This document shows positions 5,567-10,188 of a stretch of DNA of 16,495 nucleotides, one piece after another. The position numbers and the translations under genes are program-made. Source of the DNA: a virus; UHGV virus genome UHGV-0357595, one strand, 5' to 3'. Positions within the stretch are counted from its first letter, which is position 1, and each line of letters starts with the position of its first letter. Below the pieces are notes generated by a model. That model was not told where the DNA came from. It saw nothing but the letters and a program-made list of their open reading frames with translations, and did not search any database.

Positions 5567-6145
5567 ATGAGAGACATTGATGTAAGAAAGGCTGTGCATG
5601 CCAAGATTCTGAGAGATCATCATAAAGATCCTGACACCCTAATCATTGATGAGTTTACGATGAATCTAGGGGCTAGCAGAGCTGATATAGCAGTGATCAA
5701 TGGGCTTATACATGGTTATGAGTTGAAGAGCAAGAGTGATAACTTGCTCAGATTACCAGCGCAGGTGCAACATTACTCATCAGTGATGGATAAAGTAACG
5801 TTGGTTGTCTCTGATTGCCATCTTTATGATGCTTTAAGCATAGTTCCATCATGGTGGGGGATAAAGCAAGTTACGCAAGGTGCACGGCAAGGTATCCATT
5901 TAAAAACAATTCGAACTAGCAAGTTGAATCCACAAGTGGACAAACTTTCCTTAACAATGCTTCTTTGGAAAGATGAATTGCTTTCCCTATTAAGTGATGT
6001 AGGGGAGCTACAGAATTTGAAAAATAAACCTAAACGCGTCTTATGGTCAAAACTCGCCAATAGTATGGATGTTGGCGAGCTTCGTGAAGCTGTTCGAGTT
6101 AAACTTAAAGCCCGTAAAGAGTGGCGAGTTGCTCAACAACCTTAG
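5567..6145 (+). CDS. putative PD-(D/E)xK-type nuclease-like protein (192 aa); possibly sce7726-family
   Basis: ORF in the AT-rich island; motif RADIAVINGLIHGYELK (Asp followed about 12 residues later by Glu-x-Lys) resembles a PD-(D/E)xK core; weak Shine-Dalgarno; family name is a recollection, not a search result. Confidence 0.6.
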   Translation: MRDIDVRKAVHAKILRDHHKDPDTLIIDEFTMNLGASRADIAVINGLIHGYELKSKSDNLLRLPAQVQHYSSVMDKVTLVVSDCHLYDALSIVPSWWGIKQVTQGARQGIHLKTIRTSKLNPQVDKLSLTMLLWKDELLSLLSDVGELQNLKNKPKRVLWSKLANSMDVGELREAVRVKLKARKEWRVAQQP

Positions 6146-7202
6146 TTATGTGATGGTTTTGCCCAATCCTACGCCATACCTCTGGGCTACCAAATTTATA
6201 GTTACCAGAGGGATTGGCTTTGTAGGCTTGATACTCGTTTGCATAATATTCTATGTCTCTATCTCCCGCACAGAATGTAGGCCCTGAATATTCTCGATGA
6301 GCAAGAATATCCTCACTATGTTTACCATATTGTTCATAACCAAAGCGATTAGCTACTCTTCCTCGAAATACCCAAAAGTCATTATCTCCAGAGTATCTGA
6401 CGCTGGCAGATACGCTAGGGAATCGCGTCGAAAGCCTATTAAAGTCGGGGTGCTGTACTCCATAATCACTATAAATCACATTTCTGGCAAGTTCTTTTCT
6501 ATTCATTAAACTCTGCCATAAAATCCACTCGATTCGAGGTTGAGAATATAGACCAACAGAAATATCACTGAGATCTGTAGGAAATGAACCCCCAGAAAGA
6601 ATCACTTTTCTGTATTCATTGAGGTGCGCCAGATTGTTTATCAATCCCATTGCCAACGTATATAGTTCGCCGGAATTAAGTTTATCCTCGGTTAACTCAT
6701 CTCTTAAGTCAATAATTATATCAATATTTGATAAAGGAATTCCCAGATGATTAATGTAATGCGTTATTAATTGTGGGTTAACCAGATCTAACGTGGTTAA
6801 TCTCAAGCATATTTCATTCTGCATTAATTCATCAATCGCTCTTTTATAGTTAGATGGGCGAGTTGGTGAACTGACAGGAATAACTCTTATCCCCATATCT
6901 CTAACTTGATGAACCGCATTTATTATAGGGTAATGATCTTCAGGAGAAATAAAATGCTCTTCAATTAATAATCCATCAATATAAACACCTTGCATATCTG
7001 AGCAAGATTTTGAGACTTTCTTTCCGAACTCTATAAGAGTCTCGTTATAACTCTTTAAGGCAATACCTGAATCAGGGTCAATTGGCACTGGTTCAATTTC
7101 GAGTAATGGCAAAATTTTTGATTTCTTTTCAATGGATAGCTGCGATAAAGCTGATAACTCAGAACGTTTCGCTTTCAGAATAGGAATATATGAAATTGTC
7201 AT
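6105..7202 (-). CDS. hypothetical protein (365 aa), partner of the putative nuclease; possibly beta/sce7725-family
   Basis: Long minus-strand ORF in AT-rich DNA; start ATG at 7202 with AAGGT upstream; N-terminus MTISYIPILKAKRSELSAL; convergent with the 192-aa gene and overlapping it by 41 bp at the 3' ends. Confidence 0.7.
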   Translation of the reverse strand: MTISYIPILKAKRSELSALSQLSIEKKSKILPLLEIEPVPIDPDSGIALKSYNETLIEFGKKVSKSCSDMQGVYIDGLLIEEHFISPEDHYPIINAVHQVRDMGIRVIPVSSPTRPSNYKRAIDELMQNEICLRLTTLDLVNPQLITHYINHLGIPLSNIDIIIDLRDELTEDKLNSGELYTLAMGLINNLAHLNEYRKVILSGGSFPTDLSDISVGLYSQPRIEWILWQSLMNRKELARNVIYSDYGVQHPDFNRLSTRFPSVSASVRYSGDNDFWVFRGRVANRFGYEQYGKHSEDILAHREYSGPTFCAGDRDIEYYANEYQAYKANPSGNYKFGSPEVWRRIGQNHHITKVVEQLATLYGL

Positions 7203-7373: not shown

Positions 7374-7644
7374 TATCAGTCTTTCTTCCATGATGAATGC
7401 TAATGCCATTTGATTTGTTGAGGTGAAAACTGTTAAAAATCAAAACGATGTAATTGAAATGAACGTTCGGTAGCATTCACGCTTTAAATGTTTCTTTTGT
7501 GCTGATTGGATGAATTTTGGTCACTTATGATGAGAGATGTTGCAGGAAAAGAAGTTGGCATTGATCTATTGGATAGTTAGAATTGCTGCGGGTGCTTGAG
7601 GCTATCTGCCTCAGGCATGAACACCAAAAGGCAGATAGAGAAAA

Positions 7645-7711
7645 GCCCCAGTTAACATTACGCGTCCGGCAAGACGCTTAACATTAATCTGAGGCCAATT
7701 TCATGCTTTGC
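7645..7711 (-). ncRNA. candidate Sok-like antisense RNA of the hok locus
   Basis: Minus-strand promoter-like elements TTGCCT (complement of 7741-7746) and TAACCT (complement of 7718-7723), antisense to the hok leader; 3' end not resolved; placed by analogy with hok/sok loci. Confidence 0.3.
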
Positions 7712-7759
7712 ACATGTAGGTTAGCCTCTTACGTGCCGAAAGGCAAGGAGAAGCAGGCT

Positions 7760-7915
7760 ATGAAGCAGCAAAAGGCGATGTTAATCGCCCTGATCGTCAT
7801 CTGTTTAACCGTCATTGTGACGGCGCTGGTAACGAGGAAAGACCTCTGCGAGGTACGAATCCGAACCGGCCAGACGGAGGTCGCTGTCTTCACAGCTTAC
7901 GAACCTGAGGAGTAA
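7760..7915 (+). CDS. hok: Hok/Gef-family type I toxin (51 aa)
   Basis: Translation MKQQKAMLIALIVICLTVIVTALVTRKDLCEVRIRTGQTEVAVFTAYEPEE matches the Hok/Gef family (HokD/RelF-like as recalled); single transmembrane helix; an in-frame upstream ATG at 7703 would extend the frame to 70 codons. Confidence 0.85.
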   Translation: MKQQKAMLIALIVICLTVIVTALVTRKDLCEVRIRTGQTEVAVFTAYEPEE

Positions 7916-7984
7916 GAGACCAGGCGAGGGAGAAATCCCTCGCCACCTCTGATGAGTCAGGCATCCTCAACGCACCCGCGCTTA

Positions 7985-8005
7985 ACCCGTTTCGGCGGGT
8001 TTTTT
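7985..8005 (+). terminator. rho-independent terminator at the 3' end of the hok mRNA
   Basis: Stem ACCCG (7985-7989) / CGGGT (7996-8000) followed by TTTTT (8001-8005); an additional strong hairpin GGCGAGGGA / TCCCTCGCC lies at 7923-7944. Confidence 0.55.
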
Positions 8006-8190
8006 GTTGCGCGCTGAATACGCAGGGTGAAAAATAACCATATATTTGATTATATACACAACACAAAATAAAAGTCATTGCACCTGCACATTAAATAATC
8101 AAATATACGACGTGAAATAAATATTTTTTAGATTAATATTTTTGTCTCTATGTGGATATAACCGTTTGTACTTATAAACCTGGAGGCATC

Positions 8191-8403
8191 GTGGAAAAAA
8201 TAAAGAAACTATTTAGTAGCAAATATGCAGTCATACGTCGTGATGACCTGTCAGTTATAGTCGAAATGGATTACTTCCCTGAAACCAAAAAATCAATGAT
8301 GTATCGTAATGGTCGAAAGGCAATTTTTTTACCGATGAGGGTAAGTGACATTATGGGAAATGATAAACTGCAGGATGAATTGCGAGTCAGAGCATCCTGT
8401 TAG
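8191..8403 (+). CDS. hypothetical small protein (about 70 aa)
   Basis: GTG at 8191 with GGAGG (8182-8186) upstream; AT-rich coding sequence preceded by an AT-rich promoter-like region; no recognisable motif. Confidence 0.4.
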   Translation: MEKIKKLFSSKYAVIRRDDLSVIVEMDYFPETKKSMMYRNGRKAIFLPMRVSDIMGNDKLQDELRVRASC

Positions 8404-9915: not shown

Positions 9916-9941
9916 CTCAATCTGTTATCCGGGGCTATATT
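9912..9941 (+). promoter_or_regulatory. PR'-like late promoter
   Basis: -35 TTGACT (9912-9917), 18-bp spacer, -10 TATATT (9936-9941); overlaps the stop codon of the Q-like gene. Confidence 0.55.
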
Positions 9942-10003
9942 CCTCACGCGCCAGCAAAATCTGGCGTCGGGATTAGGAACCCCGGATAGAGACCGCGACA
10001 GAC

Positions 10004-10025
10004 ACACGCCGCGAGCGTGTTTTTT
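10004..10025 (+). terminator. tR'-like rho-independent terminator
   Basis: Stem ACACGC (10004-10009) / GCGTGT (10015-10020) followed by TTTTT (10021-10025); about 60-70 nt downstream of the PR'-like promoter. Confidence 0.6.
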
Positions 10026-10188
10026 ATTGTCGTATGCACGCGCACATCTGAATTATGGTGGGGCGTATGGGGGAGCTGAAAAGCTCGCCGGTTGGTTTCC
10101 CGGTAGTTCCTAACCCTGTACGTCTCACCACCCGATGATTAGGAACCTGACGGTGGTGATGGTTTAGAAACCACCAGAGGGCGTCATT

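What the first reader, a model, noticed from the sequence alone, without database searches (positions are those of the whole stretch)
7560..8010. hok/sok-type type I toxin-antitoxin locus inside the prophage island
The Hok-family toxin (51 aa) is unmistakable, and it has the expected structured leader, antisense promoter-like elements and 3' hairpins. A direct repeat TTAACATTA flanks a GCGTC hairpin in the leader (about 7641-7678). Its position right next to the convergent gene pair suggests an addiction or abortive-infection role stabilising the island. An in-frame ATG at 7703 gives a 70-codon frame, which would make an N-terminally extended Hok rather than a separate overlapping leader ORF.
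Basis: partly seen in the sequence, partly recalled or inferred. Interest (0 to 1): 0.45.

Follow-up and report, generated by a model that had tools for sequence, protein, structure and literature searches.

The report
Intact hokD/hokW-type hok/sok toxin-antitoxin cassette
This is a complete copy of the well-known hok/sok RNA-controlled toxin-antitoxin cassette (the hokD/hokW type common in E. coli lambdoid prophages), so it is an ordinary, already described element, not a new one.

Summary
[quoted passage not shown] It is 100% identical to strain APEC-O117H42, where RefSeq annotates hokD. The 51-aa Hok (7760-7915) has the same RefSeq protein accession as K-12 HokD/RelF. Unlike the truncated K-12 copy, this locus keeps every regulatory RNA element of the R1 paradigm: tac, the metastable 5' hairpin, ucb, SDmok, mok, dcb, fbi, the terminator, and the antisense sok gene (7711->7641, minus strand) with its promoter. 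Long-range tac/fbi pairing and the other helices are conserved and covary in 33 related loci. The 70-codon in-frame ORF is mok. An in-frame mok is the usual state in this clade (36 of 44 loci; K-12 mokC and 933W mokW are annotated the same way), but the frame flips among close relatives, so the act of translation probably matters, not the product. The TTAACATTA direct repeat is real. It is a quasi-palindrome that pairs through G·U wobbles only on the Sok strand, forming an extended Sok terminator hairpin specific to the hokD/W subclade. The 94%-identical hokW-sokW has been characterised experimentally. Novelty: already known. Interest: low.

The parts
7555..7583 (+). hok promoter: -35 TTGGCA (7555-7560), 17-nt spacer, -10 TAGAAT (7578-7583)
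   Evidence: The sigma-70 scan scores it 10 of 12. A -10-like hexamer lies 6-7 nt upstream of the conserved GGGTGC 5' end in related loci. Homology to other phages starts at 7578, so the -35 belongs to the local context.
7590..8007 (+). Full-length mok-hok mRNA, about 418 nt (5' end inferred from the Rfam model start and the promoter; 3' end from the terminator)
   Evidence: The Rfam model starts at 7590. The RNA folds to -171.4 kcal/mol with z = -7.1. In 33 aligned loci, 81% of cells are paired, against 40-46% for the slid controls.
7590..7602 (+). tac (translational activator element), GGGUGCUUGAGGC. It has three alternative partners: the metastable partner, ucb and fbi.
   Evidence: It is conserved at the 5' end of 44 loci.
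7608..7617 (+). Partner of tac in the metastable 5' hairpin of the nascent transcript
   Evidence: Inverted repeat I5, 90% complementary. The first 31 nt fold to -19.6 kcal/mol, and this hairpin appears in the MFE of the 3'-truncated RNA.
7643..7649 (+). ucb, the anti-SD box AAGCCCC. It pairs with SDmok in the full-length fold and with tac (the tac-stem) in the open fold.
   Evidence: The tac/ucb pairs are invariant in 33 loci.
7641..7711 (-). sok gene: a 71-nt antisense RNA with its 5' end at 7711. It has a 15-nt single-stranded 5' tail complementary to the mok start region, followed by a 53-nt terminator hairpin (7696->7644) and a U tract.
   Evidence: The coordinates were transferred from the sokW annotation of 933W through alignment A1. 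It folds to -28.6 kcal/mol with z = -4.7, against -17.8 and z = -2.25 for the sense strand. sokW RNA was detected by northern blot in the Sp5 prophage (PMC8621323).
7652..7686 (.). TTAACATTA direct repeat (7652-7660 and 7678-7686) flanking the GCGTC/GACGC stem. On the Sok strand this is UUAAUGUUAA pairing with itself through two G·U wobbles, extended by a GC-rich apical stem.
   Evidence: The feature is specific to the hokD/W subclade (10 of 33 aligned loci), with compensatory changes in L024 (AACGTC/GACGTT) and L026 (GAGCGTC/GACGCTC).
7691..7694 (+). SD of mok (GAGG), 8 nt upstream of the mok ATG
   Evidence: Read directly from the sequence. It is paired with ucb in the full-length fold and with dcb in the open fold. 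It is invariant in 33 loci.
7703..7915 (+). mok ORF, 70 codons, in frame with hok
   Evidence: The equivalent ORF is annotated mokW in 933W and mok in Rac-SA53.
7718..7746 (-). sok promoter: -35 TTGCCT (7746->7741), 17-nt spacer, -10 TAACCT (7723->7718)
   Evidence: The position is conserved in 44 loci, including the R1 type (TTGCGC-17-TATCCT). The -10 hexamer is the sequence replaced in the promoter-less sokW construct. The generic scan did not flag it.
7724..7728 (+). dcb (GCCUC), the partner of SDmok in the open or truncated conformation
   Evidence: Rfam consensus structure, the fold of nt 1-140, and invariant pairs in the alignment.
7760..7915 (+). hok toxin gene, 51 aa, same RefSeq protein accession as K-12 HokD/RelF (WP_000813254.1). 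Its SD is AGGAG at 7746-7750.
   Evidence: Pfam HOK_GEF 82.9 bits, PHROG 251 'MokW-like host killing' 114.7 bits, and the same protein accession.
7898..7901 (+). TACG: the Tyr47 codon plus G, which is the TadA A-to-I editing motif (Tyr to Cys recoding)
   Evidence: TACGAA is invariant in 33 loci and lies in a 9-nt loop. Editing of K-12 hokD at the equivalent residue (numbered position 46 in those papers) has been reported (PMC5630033, PMC12214031).
7923..7944 (+). 3' UTR hairpin GGCGAGGGA-GAAA-UCCCUCGCC. It is the likely 3' stabiliser of the processed mRNA (inferred by analogy with R1).
   Evidence: Inverted repeat I6, 100% complementary. Helices 18 and 19 are 95% paired, with 4 pairs changed on both sides.
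7965..7977 (+). fbi (fold-back inhibition element), CCUCAACGCACCC, complementary to tac
   Evidence: The duplex is -21.5 kcal/mol and sits at a conserved position about 48 nt after the stop codon. It forms in the full-length MFE fold. It covaries with tac, U4-A switching to C4-G (19 UA, 10 CG, 3 UG).
7984..8007 (+). Intrinsic terminator of the hok mRNA: stem-loop 7984-8001 plus a T run
   Evidence: Terminator scan.

Best explanation

Proposed mechanism. The steps come from the R1 paradigm. The sequence elements are shown here; the kinetics are inferred.
1. The hok promoter makes a stable mRNA of about 418 nt.
2. While the transcript is nascent, tac is held in a metastable 5' hairpin.
3. Once the transcript is complete, tac pairs with fbi near the 3' end and ucb sequesters SDmok. 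The full-length RNA can then neither be translated nor bind Sok.
4. Slow 3' trimming removes fbi. tac then pairs with ucb, and SDmok moves into the SDmok/dcb hairpin, whose loop carries the mok start.
5. In this form, mok can be translated, which opens the hok SD and lets the 51-aa membrane toxin be made. Alternatively, the unstable 71-nt Sok RNA (constitutive promoter on the minus strand) pairs its 5' tail with the mok start region and the duplex is destroyed by RNase III.
6. Hok is therefore made only when Sok supply stops.

Most likely biological role (inferred from hokW-sokW of Sp5): Sok disappears on prophage induction, and Hok damages the inner membrane and helps lysis and phage release. 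Post-segregational stabilisation of the prophage or exclusion of other phages remain possible additional roles.
For: Identity
- The region is 100% identical to E. coli APEC-O117H42, where it is annotated hokD, inside a recE/kilR/ydaT ... Q-like/lysis/terminase prophage.
- It is 96.8% identical to phage Rac-SA53, where mok and hok are annotated, and 93.7% identical to 933W and VT2-Sakai, where mokW, hokW and sokW are annotated.
- Pfam HOK_GEF, PHROG 251 and Rfam RF01794 at 119.8 bits all match.

RNA elements
- The full-length MFE fold gives both tac/fbi and ucb/SDmok pairing, with z = -7.1.
- A tac/fbi duplex is found at the same relative position in about 40 of 44 loci, with compensatory changes.
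- The full-length structure is 81% paired against 40-46% in the slid controls. It has 53 pairs changed on both sides, against 21-34 in the controls.
- The open-leader structure is 74% paired against 34-44% in the controls.
- The metastable hairpin is -19.6 kcal/mol and the tac-stem is -26.8. In the truncated RNA the two conformations are within 0.4 kcal/mol of each other.

Sok
- The promoter is conserved in position.
- The hairpin is much more stable on the minus strand than on the plus strand.
- K-12 sokC has the same 9-nt overlap with the mok start.

Experiments on hokW-sokW (PMC8621323)
- HokW is toxic, and toxicity is suppressed by sokW expressed from its own promoter.
- Suppression depends partly on RNase III and Hfq.
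- sokW RNA is lost and HokW is produced after mitomycin C, in a RecA-dependent manner.
- Phage release is halved in the deletion mutant.
Against: - No expression data exist for this exact locus.
- The Sok promoter matches only 7 of 12 consensus positions and was missed by the generic scan.
- The plain MFE of the 3'-truncated RNA shows the metastable or closed form, not the tac-stem. The two forms are nearly isoenergetic.
- As cited in bioRxiv 10.1101/2025.08.07.668861, structurally intact chromosomal hok loci (hokA of E. coli C, hokB of K-12, hokC of ECOR24) did not mediate post-segregational killing. An intact locus therefore does not guarantee an addiction function.
- HokW differs from this Hok at five of the last seven residues (VDYESEK versus TAYEPEE).
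- hokW sits in a different part of its phage genome, so transferring its role to this locus is an inference.
Confidence: 0.9

Rival explanations
1. The locus is a decayed, non-functional relic, like most K-12 chromosomal hok loci. Sequence similarity is kept only because the prophage was acquired recently.
For: K-12 hokD is truncated: homology starts only at window 7746, directly after relE, so tac, ucb, mok and the sok -10 are all missing. The literature cited reports chromosomal loci that are inactive for PSK. The window is very close to many other copies (93-97%), so purifying selection on this particular copy cannot be measured.
Against: Every element is present and in register. There is no IS element or frameshift. 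The hok and mok ORFs are open. The helices show compensatory changes across genera. The 94%-identical hokW-sokW is active.
Confidence: 0.06
2. The 70-aa in-frame product (Mok fused to Hok) is the real, or an additional, toxin. Under this reading hok has no separate initiation, which is the first reader's 'N-terminally extended Hok'.
For: mok is in frame with hok in 36 of 44 loci of this clade, including K-12 mokC and 933W mokW. Every mok translation event must therefore produce a polypeptide that contains Hok.
Against: The frame changes to +1 or +2 in 8 of 44 loci. These include L011 and L012, whose Hok is 94% identical, and three loci where mok ends in an ATGA overlap with the hok start. hok has its own SD, AGGAG, 9 nt upstream of its ATG. 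In R1, stop codons in mok downstream of the hok start do not affect toxicity (PMC9841398). The conserved part of the extension coincides with dcb, the sok promoter and SDhok, so the constraint is at the RNA/DNA level.
Confidence: 0.05
3. The main role is prophage addiction (post-segregational killing after excision or loss) or abortive infection against superinfecting phages, not help with lysis.
For: Plasmid R1 hok/sok works by PSK, as summarised. From my own knowledge, not checked here, it has also been reported to exclude phage T4. hok genes are enriched about fourfold in prophages. The adjacent convergent pair matches PADLOC models (PD-Lambda-2_C at 140 bits, cll at 98 bits), so the region may be an accessory or defence hotspot.
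Against: In the survey, hok was not enriched near defence systems. Chromosomal loci tested did not give PSK. The direct experiment on hokW-sokW showed an effect on lysis and phage yield, with no growth phenotype in the uninduced lysogen. Nothing in the sequence distinguishes these roles.
Confidence: 0.3

Closest known systems
hokW-sokW-mokW of Stx2 phages 933W and Sp5 (VT2-Sakai)
   Same: 93.7% nucleotide identity over window 7578-7987. The leader, Sok hairpin with TTAACATTA repeats, sok promoter, in-frame 70-codon mok, tac and fbi are identical or nearly so. It has been shown experimentally to be a type I TA system (PMC8621323).
   Different: The Hok C-terminus differs (…FVDYESEK versus …FTAYEPEE). 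The mok codons 3-4 and the Sok 5' tail/target differ (CTGAAC versus CTTTGC). The sequence upstream of the -10 and downstream of fbi is unrelated. It sits in a different part of the phage genome, near the right end of 933W, whereas this copy lies between the replication and nin/Q regions.
E. coli K-12 hokD (relF) in the Qin prophage
   Same: The Hok protein is the same (same RefSeq accession WP_000813254.1). The 3' UTR is the same, and a rem-like gene lies downstream in both.
   Different: The K-12 copy is truncated. Homology starts at window 7746, 14 nt before the hok ATG, directly after relE. It therefore lacks the hok promoter, tac, ucb, mok and the sok gene with its -10. The window copy is the complete form.
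E. coli hokC/mokC/sokC (gef) locus
   Same: It has the same architecture: mokC is in frame with hokC (69 versus 50 codons, shared stop) and sokC overlaps the first 9 nt of mokC. It matches the same Rfam model at 118.3 bits. Hok is about 82% identical.
   Different: The leader is 20 nt shorter, because the Sok hairpin lacks the extended stem with the GC-rich apical hairpin and the TTAACATTA repeats. The K-12 copy is disrupted nearby by IS186.
hok/sok (parB) of plasmid R1
   Same: It has the same set and order of elements: tac, ucb, SDmok, mok, dcb, SDhok, hok, fbi and terminator. The mok and hok starts are at nt 116 and 174, against 114 and 171 here. The sok promoter is in the same place. It matches the same Rfam family at 88.9 bits (PMC9841398).
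   Different: mok is in the +1 frame relative to hok. Hok is 52 aa; HokW, which differs from this Hok only at its C-terminus, is 44% identical to it (PMC8621323). The tac-stem loop is long and the Sok hairpin short. It is plasmid-borne and has a demonstrated PSK function.

Membership tests
[quoted passage not shown] | A Hok/Gef-family toxin ORF of about 50 aa with an N-terminal hydrophobic helix and a conserved Cys | tested here: met
   Pfam HOK_GEF scores 82.9 bits against a cutoff of 22, covering the full profile 1-42. PHROG 251 scores 114.7 bits. The protein carries the same RefSeq accession as HokD (WP_000813254.1).
[quoted passage not shown] | An upstream overlapping mok ORF with its own SD, starting about 57 nt before hok | tested here: met
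   The ATG is at 7703, the SD GAGG at 7691-7694, and the ORF is 70 codons. The same position is seen in 44 loci. The frame relative to hok is variable.
[quoted passage not shown] | A cis-encoded antisense Sok gene: a promoter inside the mok/hok overlap region, a 5' tail covering the mok start, and a terminator hairpin | tested here: met
   The sequence elements are present and conserved. The -10 equals the hexamer mutated in sokW(pro-less). The generic promoter scan did not detect it.
[quoted passage not shown] | Long-range tac/fbi pairing between the 5' end and the 3' UTR of the full-length mRNA | tested here: met
   7590-7601 pairs with 7965-7977 at -21.5 kcal/mol and forms in the MFE fold. 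It covaries, U-A switching to C-G and G-C to A-U, and is 88% paired in 33 loci.
[quoted passage not shown] | Alternative pairings: ucb/SDmok in the closed form, and tac/ucb plus SDmok/dcb in the open form | tested here: met
   The closed form appears in the full-length MFE fold. The open form appears in the Rfam consensus and in folds of nt 1-60 and 1-140. The pairs are invariant in 33 loci, so they are conserved but give no covariation signal.
[quoted passage not shown] | A metastable 5' hairpin that sequesters tac in the nascent transcript | tested here: met
   7592-7602 pairs with 7608-7618 at -19.6 kcal/mol. This is an in silico result only.
[quoted passage not shown] | Slow 3' processing of a stable full-length mRNA into a translatable truncated form, and an unstable Sok RNA | not testable with these tools
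   This needs northern blots or a rifampicin chase. [quoted passage not shown]
[quoted passage not shown] | Toxicity of Hok and its neutralisation by Sok | not testable with these tools
   This has been shown for the 94%-identical hokW-sokW. It has not been tested for this copy.

The most novel reading that the evidence does not exclude
The hokD/hokW subclade has a distinctive Sok RNA. Its terminator hairpin is extended by about 20 nt, using a quasi-palindrome (UUAAUGUUAA) that pairs only on the Sok strand through G·U wobbles, and it ends in a GC-rich apical stem. This extension could be an adaptation, not drift. It might change Sok half-life, Hfq or RNase III dependence, or keep the several co-resident hok/sok copies in one genome from cross-reacting, and so tune Sok loss to prophage induction. 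A second possibility is that the in-frame Mok-Hok fusion acts as a second toxin isoform.
Probability: 0.1. Interest if true: 0.3.

Novelty: already known. Interest (0 to 1): 0.1.

Why it matters
It matters little as a discovery. The locus is annotated in RefSeq (hokD), in phage records (mok/hok; mokW/hokW/sokW) and in PHROGs, and its closest relative has been characterised experimentally.

It has three modest uses:
- It is a complete reference copy of the element that survives only as a fragment in K-12 (hokD/relF).
- It allows a base-by-base map of all R1-type regulatory elements for the prophage subclade.
- It shows two points that are easy to misread from sequence alone. An in-frame mok is normal and not conserved in frame. 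The apparent direct repeat is a strand-specific G·U hairpin of Sok.

Tried and rejected
- **Insertion with target-site duplication.** I considered that the TTAACATTA repeat marks an insertion into the leader. I rejected this. The Rfam alignment does show a 16-nt extra segment relative to its consensus, but the same sequence is present in 933W, Rac-SA53 and other loci. Removing one repeat plus the insert leaves no viable hairpin. Divergent relatives keep the structure through compensatory changes (L024, L026). The repeat is explained by G·U pairing on the Sok strand.
- **Generic sigma-70 scan.** It found the hok promoter but not the sok promoter. I assigned the sok promoter from conservation and from the published mutagenesis primers.
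- **Plain MFE of the 3'-truncated RNA.** It did not give the canonical open form. A constrained fold showed the open form is only 0.4 kcal/mol above it.
- **Literature search for in-frame mok (gef orf69).** It returned mostly irrelevant papers. I used the K-12 RefSeq annotation of mokC/hokC instead.
- **Strand of the Rfam 'sok' hit.** I checked whether it identifies the Sok strand. It does not. The model is oriented like the hok leader.
- **PADLOC on Hok.** It gave no hit.
Full report
**What is there.** Window 7555-8007 holds one compact cassette on the plus strand, with a small antisense gene on the minus strand. The 51-codon ORF 7760-7915 matches Pfam HOK_GEF over the whole profile (82.9 bits, cutoff 22) and PHROG 251 'MokW-like host killing'. 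Rfam RF01794 matches 7590-7765 at 119.8 bits, against a gathering score of 59. The 70-codon ORF from the ATG at 7703 is in frame with hok. The direct repeat TTAACATTA is at 7652-7660 and 7678-7686, around GCGTC/GACGC. A perfect 9-bp hairpin lies at 7923-7944, and an intrinsic terminator at 7984-8001 with a T run.

**Where it comes from.** The 601-bp region is 100% identical to the chromosome of E. coli APEC-O117H42, where RefSeq annotates the ORF as hokD. It sits inside a Rac-type lambdoid prophage with recE, kilR, ydaT, replication genes, a Q-like gene, holin/endolysin and terminase.
- Phage Rac-SA53 is 96.8% identical and has mok and hok annotated in the same gene context.
- Stx phages 933W and VT2-Sakai are 93.7% identical and carry the annotated trio mokW, hokW and sokW.
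- In all, 4,726 of 5,426 complete E. coli genomes have at least one match, with a median of 2 and up to 10 places per genome.

The block shared between different phages runs from 7578 to about 8008, that is, from the -10 of the hok promoter to the terminator. This fits a self-contained moron-like cassette.

The Hok protein has the same RefSeq accession as K-12 HokD/RelF. In the K-12 lineage, homology begins only at window 7746, directly after relE, so the K-12 copy lacks the whole leader, mok and the sok gene. The window therefore carries the complete form of a locus that is a stump in K-12.

**Anatomy.** I used the R1 model as summarised in PMC9841398 and mapped each element.
- **hok promoter:** TTGGCA-17-TAGAAT at 7555-7583, which puts the 5' end at about 7590, where the Rfam model also starts.
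- **tac:** 7590-7602 (GGGUGCUUGAGGC).
- **Closed, full-length form:** the MFE fold of 7590-8007 (-171.4 kcal/mol, z = -7.1) pairs tac with 7965-7977 (fbi). It also pairs the anti-SD box at 7643-7649 (ucb) with the mok SD (GAGG, 7691-7694).
- **Nascent transcript:** the first 31 nt fold into a hairpin that sequesters tac (-19.6 kcal/mol).
- **Open form:** the first 60 nt fold into the tac-stem (tac/ucb, -26.8 kcal/mol). The first 140 nt add the SDmok/dcb hairpin (dcb at 7724-7728), whose loop carries the mok start. This is the structure in the Rfam consensus.
- **Truncated RNA:** without fbi, the closed and open forms differ by only 0.4 kcal/mol. That is consistent with a switch, though kinetics cannot be tested here.

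**Antisense gene.** Transferring the 933W sokW annotation through alignment A1 gives Sok as 7711->7641 on the minus strand.
- **Promoter:** TTGCCT (7746->7741), a 17-nt spacer, then TAACCT (7723->7718). It is weak by consensus and the generic scan missed it. It occupies the same position in all 44 loci examined, including the R1 type (TTGCGC-17-TATCCT).
- **Experimental support:** the primers used to make the promoter-less sokW construct replace exactly this -10 hexamer, and a sense-strand probe over the equivalent of 7682-7711 detected sokW RNA (PMC8621323).
- **Fold:** the predicted Sok has a 15-nt single-stranded 5' tail complementary to the mok start region, followed by a 53-nt hairpin and a U tract (-28.6 kcal/mol, z = -4.7). 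The same interval on the sense strand reaches only -17.8 kcal/mol (z = -2.25).

**The direct repeat explained.** TTAACATTAA differs from its own reverse complement only at CA/TG. On the Sok strand, UUAAUGUUAA pairs with its second copy through two G·U wobbles. On the hok strand the same positions are C·A mismatches. The 'direct repeat flanking a hairpin' is therefore a long, nearly continuous Sok stem capped by the GCGUC/GACGC stem.

This extension is specific to the hokD/W subclade: 10 of 33 aligned loci have it, and hokC-type leaders are 20 nt shorter. It is maintained by compensatory changes in divergent members, namely AACGTC/GACGTT in L024 and GAGCGTC/GACGCTC in L026. It is not an insertion private to this window.

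**Comparative support.** I fetched 53 related loci from Escherichia, Kluyvera, Citrobacter, Pseudocitrobacter, Photorhabdus, Pantoea, Erwinia and others, plus an R1-type plasmid locus.
- **tac/fbi:** a tac/fbi duplex lies about 48 nt after the stop codon in about 40 of 44 loci. Position 4 of tac switches between U-A and C-G (19 UA, 10 CG, 3 UG), and other pairs also change on both sides. The same nucleotide is the bulged one in the tac/ucb stem, which would explain why it is free to vary there.
- **Full-length structure:** on the 33-sequence alignment it is 81% paired, against 40-46% for slid controls. It has 53 pairs changed on both sides, against 21-34 in the controls.
- **Open-leader structure:** 74% paired, against 34-44% for the controls.
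- **Caveat:** both structures were derived from this sequence or from the Rfam consensus, which favours them over the slid controls to some degree.

**mok.** The 70-codon ORF is the leader ORF of the system, not an alternative to one. It has its own SD, its first 9 nt are covered by Sok, and it is annotated as mokW or mok in the phage records. K-12 mokC shares its stop with hokC and is 19 codons longer, so it too is in frame, and sokC overlaps its first 9 nt.

Among 44 loci, mok is in frame with hok in 36, in the +1 frame in 5 (including the R1 type and two loci whose Hok is 94% identical to this one), and in the +2 frame with an ATGA stop/start overlap in 3. A frame that flips among close relatives argues against selection on the fusion protein. 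It fits the R1 result that what matters is mok translation up to the hok start, not the Mok product (PMC9841398).

**Function.** The mechanism above is inferred from conserved sequence and structure together with the R1 literature. The experimental anchor is hokW-sokW of the Sp5 prophage (PMC8621323):
- HokW is toxic.
- sokW expressed from its own promoter neutralises it, with partial dependence on RNase III and Hfq.
- After mitomycin C, sokW RNA disappears and HokW appears in the inner membrane, in a RecA-dependent manner and about an hour before the endolysin.
- Deleting the locus delays growth arrest and halves phage release.

I take this as the most likely role here, at about 0.45. Prophage addiction or phage exclusion rank lower, at about 0.3 together. 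Tested chromosomal loci did not give post-segregational killing, and hok is not enriched next to defence systems, although it is enriched about fourfold in prophages (bioRxiv 10.1101/2025.08.07.668861). Nothing in the sequence separates these roles.

**Caveat on the Rfam hit.** RF01794 is called 'sok antitoxin', but the model is oriented like the hok leader. In K-12 it matches the hokC/mokC strand, while the annotated sokC lies on the opposite strand. The plus-strand hit in the window therefore shows that the leader, and with it the region encoding Sok, is conserved. It does not show an RNA on the plus strand that is Sok.

**Verdict.** This is a complete, apparently functional member of a long-known family, already annotated in public records and characterised in a 94%-identical relative. 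Novelty: already known. Interest: 0.1.

Noticed in passing
window 5567-6145 (+) and 6105-7202 (-): A convergent gene pair overlapping by 41 nt lies just upstream of hok/sok. One gene encodes an sce7726-family protein (NCBIfam 191 bits; PADLOC 'cll' 98 bits). The other encodes a 'beta family' protein that matches PADLOC PD-Lambda-2_C (140 bits) and PHROG 9159. It may be a defence or accessory module in the same moron hotspot. The other PD-Lambda-2 components were not looked for.
   Followed up: partly
window 9935-10135 (+): Rfam gathering-level hits to c4-a1b1 (47.8 bits), isrK (69.4 bits) and C4 antisense RNA (67 bits), in tandem and overlapping the 3' end of the Q-like (DUF1133) gene, upstream of the lysis genes. 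This is a P1/P7-type antisense module of the kind seen in lambdoid prophages.
   Followed up: no
window 7898-7903: TACGAA (the Tyr47 codon TAC plus G, which is the TadA editing motif) is invariant in all 33 aligned hok loci and sits in a predicted 9-nt loop. A-to-I editing that recodes this Tyr to Cys has been reported for K-12 hokC, hokD and hokE, with hokD at 6% (PMC5630033, PMC12214031).
   Followed up: partly
L058 502-654 (K-12 hokC locus); window 7590-7765: The Rfam family RF01794, named 'sok antitoxin', is modelled on the hok-leader strand. It hits the strand opposite to the annotated sokC ncRNA in K-12. Strand calls taken from this family should not be read as the Sok strand.
   Followed up: yes
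L018 (Acinetobacter idrijaensis, 275-bp contig), L023 (Xanthomonas pisi, 431-bp contig), L056 (Candidatus Scatousia MAG), PP818812 (Actinobacillus phage vB_Apl-pPE4): Near-identical E. coli-type hokD sequences turn up on tiny contigs or in records assigned to unrelated genera. This probably reflects contamination or wrongly assigned hosts, not real horizontal transfer.
   Followed up: no
window 7578 and about 8008 (cassette boundaries): Homology between different phage contexts (Rac-type, 933W, plasmids) starts exactly at the -10 of the hok promoter and ends at about the terminator. The -35 region and the flanks are context-specific. The cassette appears to move as a unit that borrows its -35 from the insertion site.
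   Followed up: partly
window 8191-8403 (+): The small ORF downstream of hok matches PHROG 1813 (110.9 bits, unknown function). It occupies the position of rem, which follows hokD in K-12 Qin and hok in Rac-SA53. hok and the rem-like gene therefore stay linked across prophages.
   Followed up: no
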